Assembly: GCA_951406725.2 (NCBI GenBank)
Contig: OX597838.1
Span: 39,122,001 to 39,186,000, forward strand
Source of the DNA: Octopus vulgaris
Taxonomy: Eukaryota
Reading direction: 5' to 3'
Length of the DNA stretch: 64,000 nt
How positions within the stretch are numbered: the stretch's first letter is position 1; the number at the start of each line of letters is the position of its first letter. Under the pieces are notes generated by a model. It searched no databases. It saw nothing but the letters and a program-made list of their open reading frames with translations, and was not told the DNA's origin. Both the position numbers and the translations under genes were made by a program. Of the stretch, positions 298 to 63,370 are shown one piece after another.

Positions 298-705
298 TGC
301 TGGCAGAAACGTTAGCACGCCAGGCGAAATGCTTAGCGGTATTTCGTCTGTCTTTACGTTCTGAGTTCAAATTCCGCCGAGGTCGACTTTACCTTTCATC
401 CTTTCGGGGTCGATAAATTAAGTACCAGTTACGCACTGGGGTCGATGTAATCGACTTAATCCGTGTGTCTGTCTTTGTTTGTCCTCTCTGTGTTTAGCCC
501 CTTATGGGTAGTAAAGAAATAGGTATTTCGTCTGTCTTTACGTTCTGAGATCAAATTCCGCCGAGGTCGACTTTGCCTTTCATCCTTTCGGGGTCGATAA
601 ATTAAGTACCAGTTATGCACTGGGGTCGATGTAATTGACTTAATACCTATGTCTGTCCTTGTTTGTCCCCTCTATGTTTAGCCCCTTGTGGGTCATAAAG
701 AAATA
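298..705 (+). mobile_element. SINE family B, tandem dimer
   Basis: Head (a)gctggcagaaacgttagcacgcc, B-box-like GAGTTCAAATTCC, body GCCTTTCATCCTTTCGGGGTCGATAAATTAAGTACCAG, tail GTTTAGCCCCTTGTGGG..TAAAGAAATA. The unit restarts internally at ggtatttcgtc. About ten other copies occur in the window. Confidence 0.8.
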
Positions 706-1249
706 GGTATTTGGCCAACCTCAAGAGAATCTCTGGGTAAAAATCAATACATGTTTGTATCGAACACGGGCGTCCGATAGGAAAGAAACTGCAGTGTTTT
801 GACTATATTGTAGTGTAGAGGTGCGAGGGGATGATGAAGTTGTGGGGGCCGCAATCGTTTCTATTTTACTGTTTAAACCACTCCGCCGTCACCCCAAATC
901 GAGCAGACCAATCGTGAAAAGCGTTCCAGCCATGACCATCCTGACAATATACTTAGGACGACATTATTCAATGCAACCTCTTTTGTTCTTGTTTACCGTT
1001 TTTCTCCGTTTACTTGATTCAGTCATTTTGGACTGTGGCCTTGCTGCAGCATCACCTCGAAGGGTTTAATGTCGAACAAATTGACCCTAGTACTTAGTTG
1101 TTATTGTTTTGTTTTGTTTTGTTTTTTTTTTCTTCTTAAGTCTGGTACTTATTCTATCGTAACTCTTTCGCTGAACCGCTAAGTTACGGGCACGTAAACA
1201 AACCTACATGGGTTGTCTAGCTATGGTGGGAATACAAACAAAGACACAT

Positions 1250-3922: not shown

Positions 3923-5413
3923 TGTTTCTTTATTAGCCACACAGGGCTGCACACAGATAGAACAAATTACAAGGTAGAGCTTTTCTTTTGAAGGTTTAAA
4001 AAAAAAAAAAAAAAAAAAAAGGAAGGGGGAGTTTCGATCAAAAGGGATCGTAAAAGGAGAGAAAGAGGACAAAAAAAAGGGGGTTAAAAAAAAAAGGGGG
4101 AGAGGAAAAAAAAAAAAAAAAAAAAATTGATCAATAGGGATCGTTATCACAGAAATGTCAATATGAAGTGTAAAGGGGAGGACAGGTGAGGTTTACCCGT
4201 GGAAAGAAAAGCCTACGGAAAAGACCACGGTAACCTCGGTCAATGAAGTCACATTTTATATTTCTTTTTTTTTTTTTTTTTTTTTTGCAAATAAGCAACT
4301 CTCTGTTTTCGATTTCTGGGTTCATAGGACTATGCTCAAGGTGGCTTCGTCATTCATACGTGCCATTCTTGCTACATTCACCCATCTTTTTTTAAAACAT
4401 TCGCTAGACAAAACTTGCCTCTCTACTCTCACTTTCCTTTTCAAGTGGTACTTGAAGAAGTTGATGAGAGATTGACCAGAGAGGAAAGTGTTTGTCTCCA
4501 ATCCTTTCAGACGCGTCCACCAGATACATTCTTTCGCCATAGCCACAAGGATGATGAAAATAGCTCTTCCTTCCCGTTTGAAGGAAGGAGGCGTGACAAT
4601 ATTGACGATAGACTCAGCTGATAAACCGACTCGTCCCACACGTGACAGCAGTTGTTCGACATAAGCCCACAGGTCGGAAATTGTTGGGCACTGAACGAGT
4701 GCGTGCAGAACGGTTTCGTCGCTCTGACCGCATCTCGGGCAGGTCGGCCCCGTGTTTCTCGAGCCGTGTCTGTAGAGCTTATCCCGAACGGGTAGCGCTT
4801 CTCGGTAGCACTGCCAGGCCAGGGATCTCTGGAAGTTGTCCATGGGCCCTGGCCCGAAGGTCGTCCTGAACAGGCGGGTCAGGTACTCCTCGTCGACGTC
4901 CAGGTTCGCCCCGAGCTCGTCGTCGTACCTCCTCCACTAAACCCCTATAGAATGCTTTGGTTGTGTTGAAGTCACTTAAGGTCGACCCAGGACGGCAGAG
5001 TTGCTTGAGAGCAACGCGACACTCGCGGTGCCATTCGCCCTTCCTCGGCCTCTTTTTGATCCACGACTGCAGTTCGGTCATGGAGACGAGCTGCGGGAAA
5101 GCGTGCCTCACAAACGGCGACCACACCTGTTCACCGTCGTCTACATAGAGCCAGAGATGCCGCAGTCTCAGCGCGTGTCTGCGCATCATCAACCACGGCA
5201 TGCCCAGCCCTCCTTTTAACGGGTGTTGACAGCAAATGGATCGCCTGACCATCGGGACGCATCCTTTCCACAAGAAGCGAAAGAGGATGCGTTGTAGTTT
5301 GGTGATGGTAGGGTCGGGACAAGGTACGACGGTCAGGCGGTAGTAGATGACGGACGCGATGTACGTGTTCGCCACCTCCGCTCGACCTTTTAGGGACAGT
5401 TTCCTCTCGGCCC

Positions 5414-17505: not shown

Positions 17506-18534
17506 ACATGCATAGACATAGATATATATTTACATATGCGTTTACATAAATAAATATACATACATGTATATGTGTGTGTGTGTGTGTGTGTATACATATA
17601 CGTGTGTGTGCTTGGTCTACTTGATGTCACCCTTAGTAACGATGTAATTTTCACTGGATCTACATCAGCAAATCCGCAGTGTTGATTCAGTTTATAATTG
17701 ATGACTGGAATAGAAGTTGGACTTAGTACGAATTTTTATTCAGCACGACGATCGCTTCGACCCTTCCTGTCCCATAGAGCTGACCAAAGCCTTGTGAGTG
17801 GATTTGGTAGACAGAAACTTAAAGAATCCCGTTGTATACCTGCATATATATATATGTGTGTGTGTGTGTTTGTGTGTCTGTGTTTGTCCCCCCAACATCA
17901 CTTGACAACCGATGCTGGTGAGTTTATGTCCCCGTAACTTAGCGGTTCGGCAAAAGAGACTGATAGAATATAAGTACTAGGCTTACAAAGAATAAGTCCT
18001 GTGGTCGATTTGCTCGACTAAAGGCGGTGCTCCAGCATGGTCACAGTCAAATGACTGAAACAAGTTAAGAGTATTTGTATACACTCTCACCTGGTCTGAG
18101 ACACTCATTGTCCTTTGGCACCCGGCGTGGTCAAGGGACGTTTCCCAGAACACGATCCAGTAGCTTATAAACAAAACACATACACCGTTTATGTGTCGCC
18201 GATAATGTTCATATTATTAGAGCTGCTTGTAAATTAGAATTTCATATATTATACTATATACACTTATTTCTGCCTGCGTGAATTAATTTGTTCGTAAGAT
18301 TTTATATGAGTATGCACATTTGAGTGGGTTGATATATTTGCCCATAAACGTAGAAAGGTAGAAATATATACAGAAAAATAGAACCACTTATACACATACA
18401 TATACACACAGATAGAGAGAGAGATAGAGAAAGAGGGGGGAAGAGGGATAAAGACAGACAAACAGATAGACAGACATTACGTTATGCTCTTGAATATATA
18501 TATTTTATATATGTATGTATGTATGTATCTACTA

Positions 18535-19460
18535 TATTTAAATAATGAGGGAGATAAATTAATATTAATTTTAATTTCAATTTAAAACCTGTAGTCTAGC
18601 ATACAAAAATCTGAAAATTCAGAGAAAAATTCTAATACATGTGTATATTGACAGGGCAAGACTGCTAGGTAGTCGGCCGCATGCTAGAAATAGATCATCA
18701 ACGATCAAACTACAAAGAATGTTCTCTAGAGGAAAATTTAGCGAACACCAGAACCAAATTTGGCGGGCAGGACAGATGAAAATTTATATAAAAAAACAGA
18801 ATTAATCGCATACCTCGGTTTCAGCCTTTAACAAAAGAATTACTTACATAATTCAAATGTCCGTGGCCTCGTCAATACGATCGTTCAAAATAAATGTAAT
18901 TTGAAAAACTAACCCCAGCTTTCTGTGCCAAAACAGACACGTGTTTAGTTTTACCGATTACATTAGGGATAAATTTCAAATGTCTTAGTTCCGGCGCGCT
19001 AAAAATTCCTGAAGCGAAGAACTGCAGTAAATGATTCACTGCGGTTAATGCTGGCTACTAGGGAACGTATTTATTTCAATATTTAAATGAGGGAGATGAA
19101 TTAATATTAATTTTAATTTCAATTTAAAACCTAATGTAATCGGTAAAACTAGTCACGTGTCTGTTTTGGCACAGAAAGCTGTGGTTAGTTTTTCAGATTA
19201 CATTTATTCTGAACGATCGTACTGACGAGGCCACGGGCATTTGAATTATGTAAGTAATTCTTTTGTTAAAGGCCGAAACCGAGGTATGCAATTAATTCTG
19301 TTTTTTATATAAATTTTCATCTGTCCTGCCCGCCAAATTTGGTACTGGTGTTCGCTAAATTTTCCTCTAGAGAACATTCTTTGTAGTTTGTTCGTTGATG
19401 ATCTATTTCTAGCATGCGGCCGACTACCTAGCAGTCTTGCCCTGTCAATATACATATGTA
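18535..19460. mobile_element. Non-coding PLE-like / retrozyme-like element 1
   Basis: Direct repeats 18535-18590 and 19080-19132; inverted repeats 18636-18967 and 19130-19460; a hammerhead motif in each inverted arm. Confidence 0.75.
19218..19290 (+). ncRNA. Type I hammerhead ribozyme motif
   Basis: GTA CTGACGA GGCC...GGCC GAAA CC GA GG TA TGC: intact core, stem II GGCC/GGCC, short stem III, GUA cleavage triplet. Confidence 0.75.
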
Positions 19461-19571
19461 TGTATCTATGTATCTTTTATCATTTGCTTCTATCTCTCAT
19501 TAGGACTGCAGACATGCTTGGGCATCAATCGTCAAGCGATGGACAAGAGACACACAAACACACACATGCCC

Positions 19572-19609
<38 letters not shown>

Positions 19610-19610
<1 letters not shown>

Positions 19611-19995
19611 CTCTTTTACTCTTTACTCTTTTACTTGTTTCAGTCATTTTACTGCGACCATGCTGGAGCACCACCTTTAGTCGAGCAACTCGACCCCAGG
19701 ACTTATTCTTTGTAAGCCCAGTACATATTTTATCGGTCTCTTTTGTGACGGGGACGTAAACACACCAGCATCGGTTGTCAAGCAATGCTAGAGGGACAAA
19801 CACAGACACACAAACATATACACACACATACATATATGTATATATATACAGTTTCCGTCTACCAAATCCACTCACAAGGGTTTGGTCGGCCCGAGGCTAT
19901 AGCAGAAGACACTTGCCCAAGATGCCACGCAGTGGGACTGAACCCGGAACCATGTGGTTGGTTAGCAAGCTACTTACCACACAGCCACTCCTGCG

Positions 19996-19998
<3 letters not shown>
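19610..19998 (-). mobile_element. SINE family A
   Basis: Family A head and tail with a small internal deletion. Confidence 0.8.
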
Positions 19999-20052
<54 letters not shown>

Positions 20053-24866: not shown

Positions 24867-24894
<28 letters not shown>

Positions 24895-24899
<5 letters not shown>

Positions 24900-25149
24900 A
24901 AAAAATACAAACTGGGGCAAGAACACAAAACATTTTGATGACGACACAAAAAACACGGACGGGACATTCGAAGCCTTCAATCTTCAGTCAAGTACCGGAT
25001 CATCCTCGCAATTTTAGTCAAGATTAATCAGCCGAAATTGCGAGGATGATCCTGTTCTTGGCTGAAGATTGAAGGCTTCGAAGGTCCCCTCCGTGTTTTT
25101 TGTGTCGTCATCAAAATGTTTTGCGTTCTTGACCCAGTTTGTATTTTTT

Positions 25150-25154
<5 letters not shown>
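24895..25154. repeat. ~260-bp palindromic insert in (TA)n
   Basis: Left arm ...AATACAAACTGGGGCAAGAAC... is the reverse complement of right arm ...GTTCTTGACCCAGTTTGTATT...; centre near 25025. Confidence 0.9.
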
Positions 25155-25202
<48 letters not shown>

Positions 25203-25768: not shown

Positions 25769-26624
<856 letters not shown>

Positions 26625-31279: not shown

Positions 31280-32117
31280 TTTGAACTCAGAACGTAACGA
31301 TAGACGAAATACCTATTTTGTTACTACCCACAAGGGGCTAAACACAGAGAGGACAAACAAGGACAGACAAACGGATTAAATGGATTATATCGACCCCAGT
31401 GCGTAACTGGTACTTAATTTATCGACCCCGAAAGGATGAAAGGCAAAGTCAACCTCGGCGGAATTTGAACTCAGAACGTAACAACAGACGGCGTGCTAAC
31501 GGTTCTGCCAGCTCGCCGCCTTCATTTCCCTATACCGTGAGTTATATTTTTAGTTCAGGTGTACCGCCGAATTTTGAAAAGGAAACAAGTGTACCGTGAC
31601 TGAAAAAAGCTTGCGGAGCACCGGTATAAAGTAAAATTCCTTCCCGAATCACAATGACTCATAAAGCCGGTTTCCAAGTTTCCATAGCACGTATATTTAC
31701 CCTCCGGGATGAGACGACGGTCTGTTGCAAGGTTACTCGTTTTTGCCAGCTGAGGCAACGTAAAATGAAGTGCTTTGCTCAAGAACACAACGCGTCGCCC
31801 GGTCAGGAATCGAAACACAATCTTACGATCATGAATCCAATACCTAACCACTAAGCCACGCACCTCTAGCACCTTAGAGTCTCTTTCTCTTTCTCGTTTT
31901 TACTCGTTTCAGTCATTTGACTGTGGCCGTGCTGGAGCACCGCCTTTTAGTCGATCCAATCGACCCCAGGACTTATTCTTTGTAAGCCTAGTACTTATTT
32001 TATCGGTCTCTTTTGCCGAACCGCTAAGTTACGGGCACGTAAACACACCAGCATTAGTTGTCAAACGATGTTGGGGGGACAAACACAGACACACAAACAC
32101 GCACACACACACACATA

Positions 32118-32171
<54 letters not shown>

Positions 32172-32995
32172 CGTGTTTGTGTGTCTGTGTTTGTCCCCCC
32201 AACATCGTTTGACAACTAATGCTGGTGTGTTTACGTGCCCGTAACTTAGCGGTTCGGCAAAAGAGACCGATAAAATAAGTACTAGGCTTACAAAGAATAA
32301 GTCCTGGGGTCGATTGGATCGACTAAAAGGCGGTGCTCCAGCACGGCCACAGTCAAATGACTGAAACGAGTAAAAACGAGAAAGAGAAAGAGACTCTAAG
32401 GTGCTAGAGGTGCGTGGCTTAGTGGTTAGGGTATTGGATTCATGATCGTAAGATTGTGTTTCGATTCCTGGACCGGGCGACGCGTTGTGTTCTTGAGCAA
32501 AGCACTTCATTTTACGTTGCCTCAGCTGGCAAAAACGAGTAACCTTGCAACAGACCGTCGTCTCATCCCGGAGGGTAAATATACGTGCTATGGAAACTTG
32601 GAAACCGGCTTTATGAGTCATTGTGATTCGGGAAGGAATTTTACTTTATACCGGTGCTCCGCAAGCTTTTTTCAGTCACGGTACACTTGTTTCCTTTTCA
32701 AAATTCGGCGGTACACCTGAACTAAAAATATAACTCACGGTATAGGGAAATGAAGGCGGCGAGCTGGCAGAACCGTTAGCACGCCGTCTGTTGTTACGTT
32801 CTGAGTTCAAATTCCGCCGAGGTTGACTTTGCCTTTCATCCTTTCGGGGTCGATAAATTAAGTACCAGTTACGCACTGGGGTCGATATAATCCATTTAAT
32901 CCGTTTGTCTGTCCTTGTTTGTCCTCTCTGTGTTTAGCCCCTTGTGGGTAGTAACGAAATAGGTATTTCGTCTATCGTTACGTTCTGAGTTCAAA
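31280..32995. repeat. ~1.7-kb near-perfect inverted duplication
   Basis: 31280-32120 is the reverse complement of about 32155-32995, centred on a (TA)n; identical ORFs 31399..31599(+) and 32676..32876(-). Confidence 0.93.
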
Positions 32996-33428
32996 TTCTG
33001 CCGAGGTTGACTTTGCCTTTCATCCTTTCGGGGTCGATAAATTAAGTACCAGTTACGCACTGGGGTCGATATAATCCATTTAATCCGTTTGTCTGTCCTT
33101 GTTTGTCCTTTCTGTGTTTAGCCCCTTGTGGGTAGTAAAGAAATAGGTATTTCGTCTGTCGTTACGTTCTGAGTTCAAATTCCGCCGAGGTCGACTTTGC
33201 CTTTCATCCTTTCGGGGTCGATAAATTAAGTACCAGTTCCGCACTGGGGTCGATATAATCGACTTAATACCTATGTTTGTCCTTGTTTGTCCCCTCTATG
33301 TTTAGCCCATTGTGGGTAATAAAGAAATAGGTATAGGGAAATGAATTATATTCAGGTTGCACCGCGGCACTCCTAGCATCGTCTCGTGGCACACCAATGT
33401 GTCACGGCATACCGGTTGCGAAGCACTG
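32652..33428. mobile_element. hAT-type MITE containing a SINE B trimer
   Basis: TIRs CGGTGCTCCGCAA / TTGCGAAGCACTG; 8-bp TSD CTTTATAC / CTTTCTAC. Confidence 0.75.
32755..33329 (+). mobile_element. SINE family B, tandem trimer with TSD
   Basis: One head plus three ~183-bp body-tail units; TSD GGTATAGGGAAATGAA at about 32739 and 33330. Confidence 0.85.
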
Positions 33429-44607: not shown

Positions 44608-45040
44608 ATCAAGTAAAGGTAATAAACCTCATTAAGGGATCATGAATCCAATGAAGAAACTGCCTAGTTACCAATCTATTGAAGGATCAACTATTAGGTA
44701 ACCATATAAACCATGGTTCATATATTTATATATTTAATGAGTAAGGAGAAAATGGAGAGGTAATTAATAAAATTATTTATTAATTATAAAATATGACCAC
44801 ATCTCTGACAGCTGTTTCGATTCACAAATCCTTAGATTTTACGTAATTCATTGTAATTTATTTTATTTTATTTTCAATCTATTTATTTATATATAAGTAT
44901 TTTCTCTTACACAATGTTTATTTTCTTAATATTACCCTCACCCCTTAAGCGCGTTTCATAGCATATTTACTTCCGGTTTATTTAACGGAACGCAGTATGT
45001 CTGAAATTTTAAATTTTTAAAATTCTTTCCTATCTAATAG

Positions 45041-46797: not shown

Positions 46798-46882
46798 ACT
46801 TCTGAAGAGATTCATCTTATAATGATTTTGATTTTATAAATTAATTATCTAAAGATTTCTGAATCGAAACAGCTGTCAGAGA
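46798..46882 (+). ncRNA. Type I hammerhead ribozyme motif
   Basis: CTGAAGA GATTCA...TGAATC GAAA CAGCTG TC AGAG: 6-bp stem II, palindromic stem III, GUC triplet; stem I is weak. Confidence 0.7.
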
Positions 46883-46945
46883 TGTTGTCATTTTTTATAA
46901 TTAATAAATAATTTTATTAATTACCTCTCCATTTTCTCCTTATTC

Positions 46946-46981
<36 letters not shown>

Positions 46982-55477: not shown

Positions 55478-55483
<6 letters not shown>

Positions 55484-58270
55484 ATATTTCGGAATGGTCA
55501 TATTGCCAGTTTAGCCAATAAAAACACACGCACTATATATTTGGTGTTATTTTGCTTCAGTGATATTTATTTTTTACATTAATCTTAATCTTATTTCGGC
55601 CAAAGTTCTTTCGTCACACTCCTGTGACCGCATCAGTGGTCCTTTGTTTTCTTCTCACTTACTTGTGTCTCTCCTTACTAACCGTCAGCCATTTTGTATT
55701 TCTATTGTATGTCTTCATTTGCGCATGCTTATATCTCTATGTGCGTCTATGTTTATTTAGTGTGTGTGGGGGGATGCCTGTAATATTTGTATCTTCTGGT
55801 TATATACATTCTTGTAATTTGTATTTTGTTTTTGTTGTTATTGCTTTTGTTCTAATTTTGTTCATGTGTTTACATCCACCCATTATTATCATTACATATG
55901 CTTGTATGTATGTATAACAACAATATTAGTAATAATAATAATAAATCTAATCGAAAAAAAATAAATAAATAAAAAAAAAAAAATTAAAAAAAAAAAAAAA
56001 AAAAGAATATACATATACATATATATATATACATACATATACATATACATATACATATATATATATACATACATATACACATACATATACATATATATGC
56101 ACATATACACACATATATACACATATAGATATTCATTTCTATTTCTTTAATTACCTGTGTATTTATTATGTTTGCAGGATCCACTATTGTCATATGTTGT
56201 GGTGTGCGCTATTGCTCCATTCTAGTTTTCTATTCAGGCTAGGTTTATTTTCTATTATATGTGTAGCTTCTGTAATTTGTCTAATTGTTGCATCTGTTCT
56301 ATGTGTTGACAATATCTTAATCTCTATGTTATTGATTGATCCCCCGTGTTCTTGTTCGGCGTGTTGGTACAGAATCGATGAGCTTTTACCTTCCTTGAGT
56401 TGTCTCCAATGTTCATTCACCCGCTCACCAATGCTTCTTGCAGTTTCCCCTACGTATGTTACTGTCTTGTTACTGCATCGTCCCTCTATACATCTTATAC
56501 TATAGACCACATTTCTGGCTTTACAGTTCGTTTGTGGGCTAAATCTACATACAGTGCAATAGTTATCCGTACAGAGAGTTCTACTAAAAGGATAGGTTCT
56601 ACCAATTATAGATCTGATAGGGTTGCCTGGCTTTTCAACAACCTTAATTCTTAGTTTAAGTTTATCTAGGGTCCTTCTAAAGCGGTACGCTAGTTCACCT
56701 CCAGGGGTGGTGTCAACGAACATGACACTCTGGTATTTATGGCTATCATACCAAGAGTTGGCCTTCCCTATTTTCTTTTTTGTCCTTTCTATAGTGTTCC
56801 ATGACTTGTTCCTATAGAGTGGGCAAATCCCATTCCTATCATTACATAATATATTATCAAATTTCTTCATGGCTCCTTTGTATACTCTGATCCTTTCTTT
56901 ATGGCTGTAACCTGAGAACTGCATGCGGTGAATGAAATACTGTATGTGTCTCTTTAATTCTGTAGGCTCGCACATGCGTGACACATTTCTCATTATTCTG
57001 ACGAGGTCTGCCATCAAAATATTGAATTTGGCATTGCCCGCAATGGCTGAGTTCCGGTGGATCAGGTATTTTGAGGCCATAGGTTTTGCATAGTATGAAT
57101 GAAGGATTTGGGTTTATATTTTCACAATTTCTAGCCAGAGTTCAGTGTCTAGTACTGGTAGTCTATGGTTGGGGTGTTTAGTGGGGTAGTCTATTGTGAC
57201 CTTAATACTCTGGTGGATGGAGTTAGCTATTTGCTGGATGCTCTCCATAGTATTAGTTTCTATTACTATATCAACAGTACCCTCTTGTGGGGGTGCCTTT
57301 ACTACTATATTGATATCATCAACATAGCGAGAGTACATGTTTACGAGTATGGATTTCTGCAGTAGGCATTCTTTAAGCCTTCTGTCCCACCATACCATGA
57401 AGAGGTTGGCCACATCACCAGCGATACTAACACCGATGGCTGCCCCCACGTCCTGGGCATATATTTTATTATTAAATTTAAATGTGTGGCCTTTTAGGGT
57501 AACTCTTATACTAGCTCCTAGTGCATGTGCGATCATTTTCTTTACCTGATGGACATTAGCAGGGCTCCGTATGGCTCTGGTCCATCCACTGCCATCTTTC
57601 TATATGTGTCTTCCTAGCCATAGAAGTAATTGTAGGCGGTCTACCTCTTAAACATCTACTGGGGCAGAAACTACTAAGATTATGTTTATCTAAGTATTCA
57701 CTATTATATGTCAGTCTAAGTAGGAGGCCCAGTTCTTCTGTGTCGACATTACAGAACTCCACCTGGCTCTCGTTGATCATCTCCACGCACTTCTCCACTG
57801 CAAAATCTACGTCAATCGATGGGTATAGGGATACCACATCCATGCTACCTACTATACATCCTGTCAAGTCACAAGTTTTGTTACAGTCACTGATCCTGCT
57901 TTTTTTTCACATTTATTTATTATTTTTTTTCGATTAGATTTATTATTATTATTACTAATATTGTTGTTATACATACATACAAGCATATGTAATGATAATA
58001 ATGGGTGGATGTAAACACATGAACAAAATTAGAACAAAAGCAACAACAACAAAAACAAAATACAAATTACAAGAATGTATATAACCAGAAGATACAAATA
58101 TTACAGGCATCCCCCCCCCCCACACACTAAATAAACATAGACGCACATAGAGATATAAGCATGCGCAAATGAAGACATACAATAGAAATACAAAATGGCT
58201 GACGGTTAGTAAGGAGAGACACAAGTAAGTGAGAAGAAAACAAAGGACCACTGATACAGGAGTTACGTCT
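55478..58270 (-). mobile_element. Penelope-like element 1, 5'-truncated, with inverted pseudo-LTR
   Basis: RT + GIY-YIG at 56190-57895. The 3' UTR 55632-55970 recurs inverted at 57910-58255; both ends abut (TA)n. Confidence 0.9.
56190..57895 (-). pseudogene. PLE reverse transcriptase + C-terminal GIY-YIG endonuclease (frameshifted)
   Basis: 'SMDVVSLYPSI', 'YAQDVGAAIG', 'RYVDD', 'LPVLD', Cys-rich linker, 'NVVY...YVGETARSIGERVNEH', 'EA..I....PSLN'. Frameshifts near 57550 and 57110. Confidence 0.92.
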
Positions 58271-58319: not shown

Positions 58320-59316
58320 TATGGGAGCACAGGACGTCAAGAAATGTATACAACAAAAACGTACGAAGCACGAGTACATGGAACATGAACTATTCTTTCC
58401 AATAACGAAAGACAGAAATGGAAAACAAAACAAACAACATAAAGAACGACCCTTCATCAGTTGTTGGCTGTTTTTATAGTCTCGTATTTCGAGCATTTAA
58501 CAACAATATACGCTTTCGATAAAACAGTTGCTCCCGCGAAGCAAATTAGATAAAATTTGGAATTTTGTGAACAGTCAAAATTGGTAACACAAAAAGGATG
58601 ATGAAAACAAGCAGGAATGACTGCTAAGCCTAAGCGAGGTTGTGGTGGCGAACGCGTAAATCAAGCTAGGACAGGAGACAAACAAGAACACGTCTTCCTC
58701 GTTCCAGCTACAACGGAGTGAAAGAAAAAAAAGATGGCCGATGGTCACGTGGGAGCCACTTGAGCAAGGAAGGAGGAGTGACAGAGTATCAAAGTGTACA
58801 TGTATATATACATGCATATATAAATATATATACGTGTGTACAGGACACCACAAATAGACGTAGAACTCAACGAGAAACGAAAACGTAAAAACACCATGGA
58901 ATGGACCATTCCTTTAACAACGAAAAAACAGAGTACAAGACAACTACACAAGGAAAAATCCCCTTCATCAGCCGTCCCTAGTTCAACTCCAGCGTGTTTC
59001 GAAGGTGAGGACAGAACACGTCTCGTCGAACTAGTCCTTCCTGCGAAAGAATTAAATAAAATTCCTTTGCAGAGGGGTAAAAACAAGGGAAAAAATGTAA
59101 CAAAAACAGGACGTAAAAACAATACAATTAAAAACAAATACAAAATAAAAATACAATTACAAGAAATACAGTACAAGAAGGAATAGAAACAGGACAGGAT
59201 AACAAATAAAGAGGGCCTATAAGCCTAGACGAGGAAAATATATATATAAATAGGTGAATGAATTATCCTATGTTTATCGTCAGCATGGAAAATTCGTTTA
59301 ACCGAAACCTGGGTAG

Positions 59317-59416
59317 NNNNNNNNNNNNNNNNNNNNNNNNNNNNNNNNNNNNNNNNNNNNNNNNNNNNNNNNNNNNNNNNNNNNNNNNNNNNNNNNNNNN
59401 NNNNNNNNNNNNNNNN
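59317..59416. other. Assembly gap (100 N)
   Basis: Run of N. Confidence 1.
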
Positions 59417-59794
59417 TGAGGAATTAATGAGAACAAGGAGTGTGGAGATGTTCTGTGTGACCAAAACTAATGTTCTGAATATTTTAAGAATACAGGGTGT
59501 ATTTATTAGGGGCGAGACAAAACCTACCTAAATGCATGTATGTGTATACTGGCCTATGTGTGCGCGGCCGTATGTTGGCGAGGGGCGCTAGATAATGAGC
59601 TCTGCTGAAAAAAGCCTGTCAGGCGGCTGAAAAAATTTCTGTGTTCGTGTGTTCGTCTGTGGCCTGCTTGTCTAAAAATTAACATCGTCAAAGAATCATA
59701 AGGGTATATATAATTCCAGCGTTTGCTTCCAAAAAAAACCGACCAATCGCCTAATGGGAGTAATTTCCCCTTGCAAGAGTTATTCAGAGATTTT

Positions 59795-59915
59795 TTAAAA
59801 AGCGAAATGGTTCGATATTCTCAAGGCCAATTTTGACGATGAGGCCCCGACATACGAGTAGACATCTGAATCCGTGTAAACATTGCATTGGTAAATGGCA
59901 TTTCTGATCTTGGAG
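59795..59915 (-). pseudogene. GIY-YIG N-terminal motif of PLE 2 main copy (3' part deleted)
   Basis: Minus translation 'IRNAIYQCNVYTDSDVYSYVGASSSKLALRISNHFA', then a jump into the 3' UTR. Confidence 0.8.
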
Positions 59916-60686
59916 TTACTAGACAAGAACCTTATTCTATTGGGATTAGCTTCTGATATTAATACTGCGTTTCTGTTACTATATTGACTGTGAGAACTGC
60001 GGCCGCCTACTACATTATACTCCTCATTATCACTATTAATTAACGGACTAACCCCTGTGTATTCCCTATCACTGAGAACGCTGAAATTGCTAGTATCCGT
60101 GGACCTGCTATTGCCGGAAACGATGCTAAAGTTGCTATTAGGACTCTCTACATTAATGACCTGCGCTCACCTCCCTATTACCATTACCAACGCTATTAAC
60201 ATTTCTTCTATCGCTAATCCTATTATTTACTCCCTGGTTGGTACTGAGATTACCAGTCACTGTACTGGCTCTTTTATCATTATTACTACTATTATTATTC
60301 CTACTGCGCGTTAAACTGGAGTTAGACGGAGCTGCGCCTCCGGACAATGGTGGTAGGGTCTTAATAAGCAGCCTATTATTATGGGAGGCGATTATCTGGG
60401 AAAGGTTGTTTGTGTTGGAGAAAGCTATCCTAACTTTATGTGAATTAACCGTGGAGTAATATTTGGAATTTCTGGGGAAGTTACTGGCAATGGCTTGGCG
60501 AAACAGGAGGGGAAGATTAGTTCTAATCTGCTTACCAATGGGAATTACAAACCAGATATGTTTATTCCTATTTTTGTGATGGGTCGGGAAGCCAGCTCTG
60601 ACATTAGGGTGGGTGATTCTAGGTTGAATAAAAGGTTTTGGTTTCGTATGACCTCCCCGGACCGTAAATTATCTATGTTCCCTAAA

Positions 60687-62217
60687 TTAAATCCGGAAGT
60701 ACCTGCTCCAACACTCCCCGCACCCATCACTACTTAAATTATTTATGTTATTATAGACGGCCCTATCCTGATGACCGAATGGTGGCATCGGAAGGGCTGG
60801 ATCAATATATACTATCTTCTGCCTATAACCGGCTTTGGATAGTGCGGCGTTATAAAATTCCGCTTTCTGCATAAAAATGTCGACACTAGCGGACAAGTTA
60901 GACAATCTTAGAGAGATGTTTTTAACCAAATTGTCTGTTACAGTTTTGGCATGATTGGAGAAGACACTGACATACTTTAAATTAGTGGAAGGCTTATGGT
61001 AAGGGCAGTATGAATCGCTATGGAGGTTTAGTGTGACGTCTAGGAAATTAGCCTTAGTGAGTTCATTATCAAAAACTATATTCATGCCCATTCTATTAAA
61101 GAACCTAGCTAACCTACTTTTAGTTTTCTGTATGATTCTGTTCGTGGTGTTTTGCAGGTAAAACAGACAATCGTCACGATACAGGCCGCCCGCGATATCC
61201 GGGAATTGGTCGGATAATTCGTAGAGAATATAGATTCCGACCAAATCGGCTATCTGCGCGCTATCCGAACTACCCATAGGCACATCGAATTCGTTGGGAG
61301 TATCTTTACGAATCCACAACTTATTTTCAAACTTTATAAATGATTTTCTGGCAACTAAAATAATATCAATTTCTTCTCTAGTGAGGCCTGCCTTGTTGTG
61401 AGCATGCCACAGGGCCTTATTTAGTACACTAGGGTTAATCGAGGGGTAGAAGCTGGCGATATCAAACTGAATAAACCTAGTACGGTTCTTATTAGGGATG
61501 GAAGAGAACCACTTCACGACCTGCGAGGAGTTAGCCCAGAGGCTAAGCTTCAGCTTATTTACTAAACTAGGGATATATTTATCTAAAATATACTTACTGA
61601 TGGTCCCGATATCGGAACTAGCAGGGCATATGAGTCTTAACGCTGGGTTGGTGTAGAAATTCGGTTTGTGGTCCTTCACTATGAATTTAGGTTGTTTAGG
61701 GCTAAGCGGCTGCGTTCTCATTTGAATTCCGTATTTAAACATTATTTCCTTAATCTCCAAGTTTACTTTTCTCAGTGTGTTCCAATTAGTTGTTCTATAA
61801 TTCTTCTTGATCTCTTTTCCGAGTAAATCTAGGTACTGTCTAATGGGTAACTTATATGTGTTCCTTGTCTTGTCAGACTGGACCAAGATTCCATCCGACC
61901 TGTTAATATCCTTGGTAATTTTATCTAGGTATCTGAGGTGATCATTTCTCCTGGGTGACTTCCTGAACTTAATCTTCCTTACGATGTCCCACAAGTCGTC
62001 CTCAAAATTCTTCAGTCTTGGGTTAGGTGGCGGTGTATCCATCGACTTAAAAAGCCCACAATATTCGGACGATGCTGCTGCCCGGTTCAATTTTAGATCC
62101 TCGTTCTCGTGGAAGAAAACAAGCCATCTAATCCGGTTTATGAAAGCGTTAGTTTTGCAAACCAATTCCTTAAGGAAGGCATCCTTCGGTGGTATAGGAA
62201 TATCCTTAAGGGACGCA
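60687..62217 (-). pseudogene. PLE reverse transcriptase, near-complete, frameshifted downstream
   Basis: 'SLKDIPIP', 'SDKTRNTY', 'KDHKPNF', 'LRLICPASSDIG', 'QFDIASFYPSI', 'FDVPMGS', 'GLYRDD', 'NFLDVTLNL', 'PYHKP'. Confidence 0.92.
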
Positions 62218-62219
62218 TC

Positions 62220-62566
62220 AATCAGATGTCTACTCGTATGTCTACTCGTATGTCGGGGCCTCATCGTCAAAATTGGCCTTGAGAATATCGAACTATTTCG
62301 CAACTTTTCGCGACGTTAATAAATACCAAGCTACAGGACTTAGCAAACTTATCTGGCGTTTGAAGAACGCGAATTCAGTTTTTAGGCTGGAATGGTCGAT
62401 TTTGTCGGTGGCCCTCCCGTTTGATAGGGGCAGAAGGAGGTGTAATCTTTGTAACTCTGAGCTTTTCCACATATTGTTGGCCAGAGGCCGCTTGGTAAAC
62501 GGGCTTTTACAGACGGCTTTTCGATGTCCCCATTGGCGGCGTCATACTTATCTTACATATAAATGA
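62220..62566 (+). pseudogene. GIY-YIG endonuclease C-terminal part in the inverted pLTR
   Basis: 'YSYVGASSSKLALRISN...ATGLSKLIWRLK...WSIL...CNLCNSELFHIL...CPH'. Confidence 0.85.
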
Positions 62567-63189
62567 TACCTAAGACTATTAAAATGAAAATAATATTTGG
62601 AAATAATTTTTGAAAAAACTTTAAAAAAAATCTCTGAATAACTCTTGCAAGGGGAAATTACTCCCATTAGGCGATGGTCGGTTTTTTTTGGAAGCAAACG
62701 CTGGAATTATATATACCCTTATGATTCTTTGACGATGTTAATTTTTAGACAAGCAGGCCACAGACGAACACACGAACACAGAAATTTTTTCAGCCGCCTG
62801 ACAGGCTTTTTTCAGCAGAGCTCATTATCTAGCGCCCCTCGCCAACATACGGCCGCGCACACATAGGCCAGTATACACATACATGCTTTTAGGTAGGTTT
62901 TGTCTCGCCCCTAATAAATACACCCTGTATTCTTAAAATATTCAGAACATTAGTTTTGGTCACACAGAACATCTCCACACTCCTTGTTCTCATTAATTCC
63001 TCACCTACTAGATTTGACCGCGGCCCGACCTGTAATTATTCCAACGGACCTTTTGTCGACCCCCACCAACCCCCCGATTTCAACGTACATTGATAAACAG
63101 TTTGCCCATGGGCTCTTAAGGAGCGTCCTCGTTCGAATTGCTTTGCTGCGCCTCCGTTTTGTTTTGCTCTGACAACGTAATTCCTGGTT

Positions 63190-63272
63190 TTTCCTGAAGA
63201 GAAAGCTGCAATATGGTATCCTTATTTAATCAGAATTTGGAAAATTGTGGCCTTTGAAACATGTGTAGAATG
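63190..63272 (+). ncRNA. Type I hammerhead motif in PLE 2 pseudo-LTR
   Basis: TTC CTGAAGA GAAAGCTGCAAT...ATTGTGGCCTTT GAAA CATGTG TA GAA: stem I TTC/GAA, palindromic ACATGT, GUA triplet. Confidence 0.68.
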
Positions 63273-63324
63273 TAATAAAAGGAATTCTGTACAATCTTCG
63301 TTCAACTCCATTTCTTCCATTCAC

Positions 63325-63370
<46 letters not shown>

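What the first reader, a model, noticed from the sequence alone, without database searches (positions are those of the whole stretch)
18535..19460. Element 1: ~542-nt terminally redundant monomer plus inverted arm with two hammerheads
Direct repeats about 542 nt apart bracket a monomer, followed at once by a ~330-bp inverted copy. The + arm hammerhead (19218-19290) is intact; the - arm copy (about 18808-18880) has TTGACGA in place of CTGACGA. A terminally redundant monomer with no ORF is what reverse transcription around a circular or tandem RNA would leave (inference).
Basis: partly seen in the sequence, partly recalled or inferred. Interest (0 to 1): 0.72.

Follow-up and report, generated by a model that had tools for sequence, protein, structure and literature searches.

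The report
Non-coding Penelope-type insertion with hammerhead ribozyme
A decayed, protein-free jumping element carrying a self-cutting RNA motif sits in octopus-like DNA with the insertion scars of Penelope-type retrotransposons: a known kind of element, but its layout, repeated by an unrelated element nearby, hints at how such RNAs are copied into genomes.

Summary
A 924-bp insert (18532-19455) sits in a microsatellite between 13-bp target-site duplications. Read on the minus strand it is: an inverted 5'-truncated copy (~330 bp), a 54-nt repeat, a 542-545-nt non-coding unit ending in the same repeat. The hammerhead is type I with a weak, dimer-type helix III. Both copies are damaged: the unit's own copy has C3U and C11.1U; the 'intact' copy has a helix I mismatch. 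Any transcript through the locus folds into a long hairpin that buries both, so this locus cannot make circles. The unit is a self-paired RNA (z about -4), unlike the 3' ends of two coding PLE relics in the window. An unrelated 488-nt element 6 kb away has the same layout (56-nt redundancy, 37-nt gap). Best reading: a solo retrozyme-type non-autonomous PLE, reverse-transcribed from a tandem or circular RNA with two priming sites. No other copy could be reached, so the period is untested and a truncated coding PLE remains possible. Host is most likely Octopus.

The parts
18532..19455 (-). Whole insertion, 924 bp, non-coding, Penelope-type anatomy
   Evidence: Bounded by the duplicated 13-mer; no PLE protein remnant in six frames
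18519..18531 (.). Left target-site duplication, in a (TATG)n/(TATC)n microsatellite
   Evidence: The 13-mer occurs exactly twice in the window, at 18519 and 19456
19456..19468 (.). Right target-site duplication; its first 6 nt also match the element (priming microhomology)
   Evidence: the 6-nt match is the longest 3'-terminal match among the 542 sites of the unit
18534..18590 (-). Terminal repeat A, 3' end of the direct copy (57 nt, with a 3-nt insertion)
18591..18634 (-). 44-nt spacer, present only in the direct copy; can pair 9 bp with the arm; holds a splice-acceptor-like motif
   Evidence: Helix 18687-18679 with 18604-18596, mean pair probability 0.99, but spacer-arm duplex not beyond shuffles (123 of 500); motif
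18635..18966 (-). Arm inside the direct copy (ribozyme in sense on the minus strand)
18804..18882 (-). Type I hammerhead of the unit: 7-bp helix I, long helix II, weak helix III; C3U and C11.1U, probably dead; cut site after 18811
18730..19010 (-). Long-range imperfect helix (19010-18969 with 18787-18730) that encloses the ribozyme and an upstream hairpin
   Evidence: Duplex -63.0 kcal/mol vs -37.4 +/- 4.3, 0 of 500 shuffles
18967..19078 (-). Unique 5' part of the unit (loop between the arms)
   Evidence: Pairs with the arm downstream of the ribozyme; no coding remnant
19079..19132 (-). Internal repeat A (54 nt): the terminal redundancy, a mini pseudo-LTR
19116..19132 (.). Inversion junction: 12 of 17 nt match 18981-18965, last three exact
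   Evidence: Best of 542 sites, next best 11 of 17
19130..19461 (+). Inverted, 5'-truncated copy of the arm, head-to-head with the direct copy
19215..19293 (+). Type I hammerhead with intact core, GUA cut site after 19286, C-A mismatch in helix I, helix III self-complementary (dimer type)

Best explanation
This is one genomic copy of a protein-free, hammerhead-bearing RNA element (retrozyme type) that was inserted in trans by the reverse transcriptase and GIY-YIG endonuclease of a Penelope-like element. Shown: boundaries, target duplication, repeats, ribozyme motif, self-paired fold, no coding remnant. Inferred: the template was a more-than-unit RNA (uncleaved tandem transcript or religated circle; the locus cannot tell which). 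One nicked target strand primed at the end of repeat A and was extended one full unit (542-545 nt) plus 54 nt. The other target strand primed about 100 nt upstream, through a 6-nt match, and copied ~330 nt, giving the inverted copy. The two cDNA ends joined through an imperfect 17-nt match. In active family members the ribozyme would cut tandem transcripts as a dimer. This copy is a fossil: both ribozymes are damaged, they face opposite ways, and a read-through transcript would be a ~330-bp double-stranded hairpin.
For: PLE anatomy (partial tandem, adjacent inverted 5'-truncated copy, microsatellite target: PMC8557442 passages; 8-10-bp TSDs, 15-bp overlap at the inverted junction, head-to-head: PMC3846280 passages) is matched item by item. 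The 13-mer occurs 2 times in 64 kb, 2 of 142 occurrences of its first 10 nt. Unit fold z -3.99, 0 of 100 shuffles and -4.38, 0 of 40, against +1.67 and +0.45 for the 3' ends of the two coding PLE relics; of 14 control windows (drawn from 50 eligible) the lowest is -3.53. The unique 5' part pairs with the arm (0 of 500 shuffles). An unrelated element at 25814-26527 has the same layout: 56-nt repeat, period 488, 37-nt gap, 172-bp arms, degenerate hammerhead, z -4.59. The coding relics have inverted copies but no terminal repeat at the junction (best scores 15-19 vs 94 and 107). The left target end resembles the sequence that follows repeat A inside the unit (21 of 542 windows score as high, three sites), as expected if the template ran on from A into the unit start. 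Both cDNAs cross the ribozyme cut site, so a cleaved linear monomer was not the template. Double-hammerhead fold is 10 kcal/mol better than two monomers.
Against: No second copy of the family was found (window; GTDB genomes; phages; Craig 2021 supplement), so a constant period and tandem arrays are unshown. Only 203 nt lie upstream of the ribozyme core, less than the ~550-630 nt between stop codon and ribozyme motif in the neighbouring coding relics, so 'no ORF' does not exclude a truncated coding PLE. No similarity to the ends of those neighbours (69 to 100 of 100 shuffles score as high): no mobilising partner is identified. The fold is as strong on the antisense strand (z -3.44 vs -3.11), so it is not shown to be RNA-level selection. 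Repeat A does not pair with the rest of the unit (138 of 300). In vitro an Anolis PLE starts at sites not homologous to the target, and ribozyme cleavage is not needed (PMC11167929). The comparison rests on 2 vs 2 elements. Microhomologies are short and AT-rich.
Confidence: 0.65

Rival explanations
1. The insert is the 3' end (pseudo-LTR region) of an ordinary coding PLE, truncated 545 nt from its end. The enzyme then restarted at the same initiation site on another RNA, copied 54 nt, and joined an inverted copy. The '542-nt monomer' is only a truncation length.
For: PLE insertions are often 5'-truncated partial tandems with an inverted copy. Pairs of hammerheads 100-700 bp apart on opposite strands were ascribed to truncated PLEs (PMC4209133). 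UTRs of neighbouring PLEs are long enough to hide the ORF. Splice donor- and acceptor-like motifs on the sense strand recall PLE 5' introns.
Against: Neither truncated coding relic in the window has a terminal repeat at its junction, both non-coding elements do. Their 3' ends are unstructured, both units are rods whose pairing starts within about 12 nt of the unit start. Two unrelated elements share a 54-56-nt redundancy.
Confidence: 0.22
2. Same RNA unit, but the inverted copy was made by fold-back of the first cDNA onto itself at the 17-nt match and DNA-templated synthesis (self-priming), or the locus is two nested insertions with repeat A as a long duplication, rather than two priming events on one more-than-unit RNA.
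For: The junction match is the best site in the unit and serves fold-back equally well. Self-priming was proposed for PLE inverted repeats (PMC3846280). A PLE can nick its own pseudo-LTR (PMC11167929).
Against: One 13-bp duplication flanks the whole insert. Fold-back alone does not explain why the direct copy stops 44 and 37 nt from the end of the inverted copy, in unit coordinates, in two families. Nesting needs the two arms to differ upstream of the same base.
Confidence: 0.1
3. A foldback DNA element (MITE-like), a chance arrangement or an assembly artefact.
For: Long inverted repeats and a short duplication also mark DNA transposons; inverted repeats are known trouble spots for assembly.
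Against: The repeats are not terminal (101 nt of element lie outside the left arm). Arms differ at 13 places, so not a read duplication. The hammerhead is far beyond chance. No N gap nearer than 59317.
Confidence: 0.03

Closest known systems
Metazoan non-LTR retrozymes (Cervera and de la Pena 2020, PMC7229834; Li et al. 2026, 10.64898/2026.07.22.740005)
   Same: Type I hammerhead, no ORF, GC 35%, TSD longer than 4 bp, self-paired unit, co-occurrence with coding PLEs; solo monomers are described.
   Different: About 1.1 units, not a tandem array; 542 nt is above the 150-450 of the 2020 paper though inside the 51-972 of the 2026 preprint; carries a PLE-type inverted 5' copy, which the parts of these two papers that I read do not describe; expression and circles untested.
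Endonuclease-positive Penelope-like elements (Craig et al. 2021, PMC8557442; Arkhipova et al. 2013, PMC3846280; Cervera and de la Pena 2014, PMC4209133)
   Same: Partial tandem, head-to-head inverted 5'-truncated copy with a short overlap, one-sided 3' extension, TSD, microsatellite target, hammerhead with weak self-complementary helix III.
   Different: No RT or GIY-YIG coding sequence; the direct repeat is only 54 nt and does not hold the ribozyme; the one-sided extension is about 101 nt (44 + 57), not 30-40.
Non-autonomous Chlamys PLEs such as MRC1 (PMC8557442)
   Same: Non-coding elements that form pseudo-LTRs and head-to-tail insertions.
   Different: Green algal; most Chlamys lack canonical hammerheads; they resemble their autonomous partner at the 3' end, whereas no partner is identified here.
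L1 twin priming (PMC2837659, search listing only; details recalled)
   Same: Inverted 5' piece plus direct 3' piece inside one TSD, microhomology at the priming site and the junction.
   Different: In L1 the two pieces come from different parts of one RNA; here both copy the same sequence, which needs a more-than-unit template, two templates or fold-back.

Membership tests
Non-LTR retrozyme | Type I hammerhead in the unit | tested here: met
   Descriptor hit, 2 of 5000 shuffles; the unit's own copy is mutated; no Rfam match
Non-LTR retrozyme | Two or more head-to-tail units, each with a ribozyme | tested here: not met
   This locus has 1.1 units and the second ribozyme is inverted; the rest of the genome could not be searched
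Non-LTR retrozyme | No protein-coding capacity | tested here: met
   Profiles from 27 PLE proteins score below zero on all six frames and find both coding relics; longest stop-free frame inside the insert is 76 codons, one weak hit not followed
Non-LTR retrozyme | GC below 50%, TSD longer than 4 bp, no LTR/PBS/PPT | tested here: met
   GC 0.35; 13-bp TSD; PBS/PPT not searched specifically
Non-LTR retrozyme | Highly self-paired monomer | tested here: met
   z -3.99, 62% paired as a circle; not strand-specific
Non-LTR retrozyme | Constant unit length across copies | not testable with these tools
   No eukaryotic genome collection; no second copy found
Non-LTR retrozyme | Self-cleavage and circular RNA in vivo | not testable with these tools
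   Needs cleavage assay, northern or divergent RT-PCR
Autonomous PLE | Single ORF with PLE RT and GIY-YIG endonuclease | tested here: not met
Autonomous PLE | Partial tandem forming a pseudo-LTR | tested here: met
   54-57-nt direct repeat
Autonomous PLE | Adjacent inverted 5'-truncated copy | tested here: met
Autonomous PLE | 30-40-bp one-sided tail | tested here: inconclusive
   Extension is 44 nt of spacer plus 57 nt of repeat
Autonomous PLE | AT-rich or microsatellite target with TSD | tested here: met
Autonomous PLE | 3'-end similarity to a coding PLE of the same genome (for a non-autonomous derivative) | tested here: inconclusive
Dimer-type type I hammerhead | Helix III of 1-2 bp with a small self-complementary loop, conserved core and G10.1-C11.1 | tested here: met
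   Plus copy; dimer fold -38.4 vs -28.2 kcal/mol for two monomers, though a non-active dimer is lower still at -46.2; definition from PMC4209133

The most novel reading that the evidence does not exclude
Octopus carries several unrelated families of 490-540-nt rod-like hammerhead RNAs that are mobilised by PLE enzymes, and their insertions keep a fixed geometry (one unit plus ~55 nt, inverted copy primed ~95-105 nt upstream, ~40-nt gap). That geometry would be the genomic footprint of two-site initiation by a PLE enzyme dimer on a multimeric or circular RNA. It would tie retrozymes to PLEs by insertion scar rather than by co-occurrence, and explain the PLE inverted repeat and tail by one mechanism.
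Probability: 0.3. Interest if true: 0.68.

Novelty: new variant of a known kind. Interest (0 to 1): 0.44.

Why it matters
That animal retrozymes are moved by PLEs is argued from co-occurrence and sequence likeness, and how PLEs make their inverted repeats and tails is unsettled. Short non-coding units that keep the full PLE scar, with measurable redundancy and gap, make both questions testable by counting copies in a genome. Such loci would also give long double-stranded RNA if transcribed, a possible substrate for editing or small-RNA pathways (inference). As a single decayed copy it is ordinary repeat DNA: hammerheads are already annotated in a squid genome (235) and PLE families in Octopus.

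Tried and rejected
Rfam: 0 hits at gathering threshold over the window; 19 hits at E<=10 around the locus, all far below gathering, none a hammerhead. tRNA scan 0. First descriptor missed the plus copy because it allowed no mismatch in helix I; redone. Other copies: none in the window, 0 in GTDB genomes by ribozyme pattern, none in phage records, none in the Craig 2021 supplement by three motifs. A GTDB scan for relatives of the neighbouring PLE protein confirmed 0 of 23 candidates. The 76-codon antisense frame gave 1 weak hit among 1.84 billion proteins (E 1e-4, 29%), not examined. An idea that the unique 5' part encodes a GIY-YIG end was rejected. Apparent motif likeness to the ends of the neighbouring PLEs was rejected. 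G-U pairs as proof of strand were rejected: both strands fold alike. Spacer-arm and repeat-unit pairing are not beyond shuffles. My first label 'Nematis-like' for the relic at 59417-63330 was wrong; its motifs fit Hydra. No paper with a direct C3U measurement was found; the loss of activity is inferred from C3-G8 data. Unchecked: any eukaryotic genome or transcriptome, metagenome and viral contigs, the Octopus vulgaris repeat library on Zenodo and that paper's supplement, the supplement of PMC7229834, the supplements of the 2026 preprint, and PMC5785218; any of these may already list this family.

Full report
Setting. The window is microsatellite-rich animal DNA. A reading frame at 60687-62315 matches an Octopus sinensis predicted protein at 90% identity over 23% of its length (1 named hit of 50), so the host is most likely an Octopus species. 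No eukaryotic DNA collection was available, which limits everything below to one window.

Observation. A 47-nt direct repeat lies at 18544 and 19086, 542 nt apart; it extends to 57 and 54 nt with a 3-nt indel. Inverted arms align over 347 nt at 95%. A type I hammerhead with core at 19222 and GUA ending at 19286 is the only strict-descriptor hit in the window, with 2 of 5000 shuffles of the arm and 0 of 30 shuffled windows giving a hit. The minus-arm copy reads TTGACGA. Rfam does not see either, probably because helix II spans 46 nt (inference).

Boundaries. A 13-mer at 18519-18531 recurs at 19456-19468 and nowhere else on either strand; only 2 of 142 occurrences of its first ten bases continue this way. 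Removing 18532-19468 leaves a plain degenerate microsatellite. I take this as the target-site duplication, with the caveat of the low-complexity context.

Orientation. The unit between the direct repeats carries its ribozyme in sense on the minus strand. Read that way the insert is: inverted arm (19455 to 19131), repeat A (19132-19079), unique part (19078-18967), arm with ribozyme (18966-18635), spacer (18634-18591), repeat A (18590-18534). Craig et al. describe PLE insertions as partial tandems, often with an adjacent inverted 5'-truncated copy, a one-sided tail and a bias for microsatellites (PMC8557442, passages). Arkhipova et al. give 8-10-bp duplications, a 15-bp overlap at the inverted junction and mostly head-to-head arrangement (PMC3846280, passages). 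Here the overlap is 12 of 17 nt, the best of 542 sites, though the next is 11.

Ribozyme. Helix II is long and certain (pair probabilities above 0.9). Helix III has two pairs and a self-complementary loop; a double hammerhead is 10 kcal/mol better than two monomers for both copies, although a non-active dimer is lower still. This is the dimer type of metazoan repeats and PLEs (PMC4209133, passages). Each copy keeps what the other lost: the plus copy has the core but a C-A mismatch in helix I and misfolds by 6.6 kcal/mol; the minus copy has a perfect helix I but C3U and C11.1U. Two of these changes are CpG transitions, as in neutral decay (read from the sequence). That C3U kills activity is inferred from the C3-G8 pair (C3G abolishes cleavage, PMC11167929, parts 1-2 of 4; natural U3 comes with A8); I found no direct measurement. 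A transcript through the insert folds at about -600 kcal/mol with 63 of 65 or 64 of 65 ribozyme bases paired to the other arm. The locus cannot release a monomer or circle.

Is the unit self-contained? Profiles built from 27 of the 50 homologues (those of 660 aa or more) find both coding relics of the window and nothing in the insert. This is weak on its own: 203 nt precede the ribozyme core, and the neighbouring relics have about 550-630 nt between stop codon and ribozyme motif (the motif of the 55632 relic read by eye). Structure says more. The 545-nt unit folds with z -3.99 (0 of 100). Its unique 5' part pairs with the arm downstream of the ribozyme (-63.0 vs -37.4 kcal/mol, 0 of 500). The 3' ends of the coding relics give z +1.67 and +0.45, and 14 control windows out of 50 eligible range from -3.53 to +1.52. 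Against: the antisense strand folds as well (z -3.44 vs -3.11), repeat A does not pair with the rest (138 of 300) and the spacer-arm duplex is not beyond shuffles (123 of 500).

A second element. At 25814-26527, inside (TA)n, lies an element with no similarity to the first (best E 0.28) but the same layout: 56-nt repeat, period 488, 37-nt spacer, 172-bp arms, a degenerate hammerhead read by eye with a 5-bp helix I (it fails my descriptors), and z -4.59. The two coding relics (55632-58255, RT plus GIY-YIG; 59417-63330, Hydra-type motifs) also have inverted copies but no terminal repeat at the junction. So the redundancy goes with short non-coding units, 2 of 2 against 0 of 2. In both units the second pass stops within 5 nt of the base of the helix that joins spacer and arm (0 nt and 5 nt).

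Mechanism. I infer insertion by a PLE enzyme in trans from a more-than-unit RNA. The left target end primed at the end of repeat A and ran one unit plus 54 nt; it resembles the sequence following A inside the unit (21 of 542 windows as good), which favours a template continuing from A into the unit start. The right target end primed about 100 nt upstream through a 6-nt match, the longest in the unit. An Anolis PLE initiates at two adjacent internal sites and uses uncleaved RNA, but without target homology. Both cDNAs cross the cut site, so the template was an uncleaved tandem or a religated circle; I put these at even odds. Confidence 0.65. Main rival: a truncated coding PLE with re-initiation, 0.22. 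No partner was identified.

Comparison with what is known. Non-LTR retrozymes are tandem type I hammerhead repeats expressed as circles in coral, mussel and axolotl (PMC7229834, parts 2-4 of 6; review PMC7761336, passages); a 2026 preprint derives them from PLE ends and counts solo monomers, units 51-972 bp (parts 1-3 of 5). Opposite-strand hammerhead pairs 100-700 bp apart and more-than-unit copying of circles were both noted in 2014. The element works like a solo retrozyme but fails the tandem test at this locus, and it fails the ORF test for autonomous PLEs, so I do not file it under either. Searches for octopus or cephalopod with hammerhead, Octopus with Penelope, non-autonomous Penelope and Penelope with twin priming listed no description of this family or of the fixed geometry; an O. 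vulgaris repeat paper never mentions ribozymes in its main text (PMC13282606, passages), a squid genome lists 235 hammerheads (PMC6962438, passages), and Schistosoma W-elements are a further parallel (PMC8490949, passages). Libraries and supplements that I could not see may hold it.

Verdict. A real, decayed, PLE-type non-coding insertion. Known kind, new variant. Interest 0.44, carried by the shared geometry of two unrelated elements, which one genome-wide count would confirm or dismiss.

Noticed in passing
window 25814-26527 (minus): Unrelated element with the same anatomy: 56-nt direct repeat (period 488), 37-nt spacer, 172-bp inverted arms, degenerate type I hammerhead near 26106-26046, rod-like fold z -4.59, inside (TA)n. 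A 32-codon ATG-started frame begins in its repeat (read by eye).
   Followed up: partly
window 55480-58255 (minus): 5'-truncated, broken coding PLE (RT and GIY-YIG fragments) with a 357-bp inverted copy at 97%; linker looks Nematis- or Neptune-like by eye.
   Followed up: partly
window 59417-63330 (minus): Hydra-type PLE relic: 542-codon RT frame at 60687-62315, internal deletion in the direct copy, long inverted copy holding the endonuclease end, weak hammerhead at 63194-63267; 100-N gap at 59317-59416. An asparagine/serine-rich stretch lies between RT and endonuclease, like the N-rich inserts of rotifer Penelopes.
   Followed up: partly
window 44728-44837 and 46847-46954: 110-bp inverted pair holding parts of a third hammerhead type with a palindromic helix III loop (read by eye), with other repeats nested between.
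   Followed up: no
window 24869-25180: Near-perfect head-to-head palindrome (90%) inside (TA)n, with a hammerhead-core-like word; probably another PLE end.
   Followed up: no
window 31280-32078 and 32195-32995: 801-bp inverted repeat at 99.6% made of common repeats; recent foldback duplication or assembly artefact.
   Followed up: no
window 18847, 18815, 18629-18611 (minus): Splice donor-like motifs inside the ribozyme (loop II and at the cut site) and an acceptor-like motif in the spacer; PLEs are known to carry introns near the ribozyme. Not scored.
   Followed up: no
window 338-712, 32785-33334 and many dispersed sites: A 184-bp unit in tandem and dispersed copies, and two SINE-like families of about 190 and 150 bp; copies flank the finding in inverted orientation (17779-18073 and 19605-20001).
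   Followed up: no
window 4322-4936 (minus): LINE fragment with a zf-RVT domain.
   Followed up: no
window 58500-59316: Further PLE-end-like sequence with hammerhead-core-like words next to the N gap; no hit with the descriptors.
   Followed up: no
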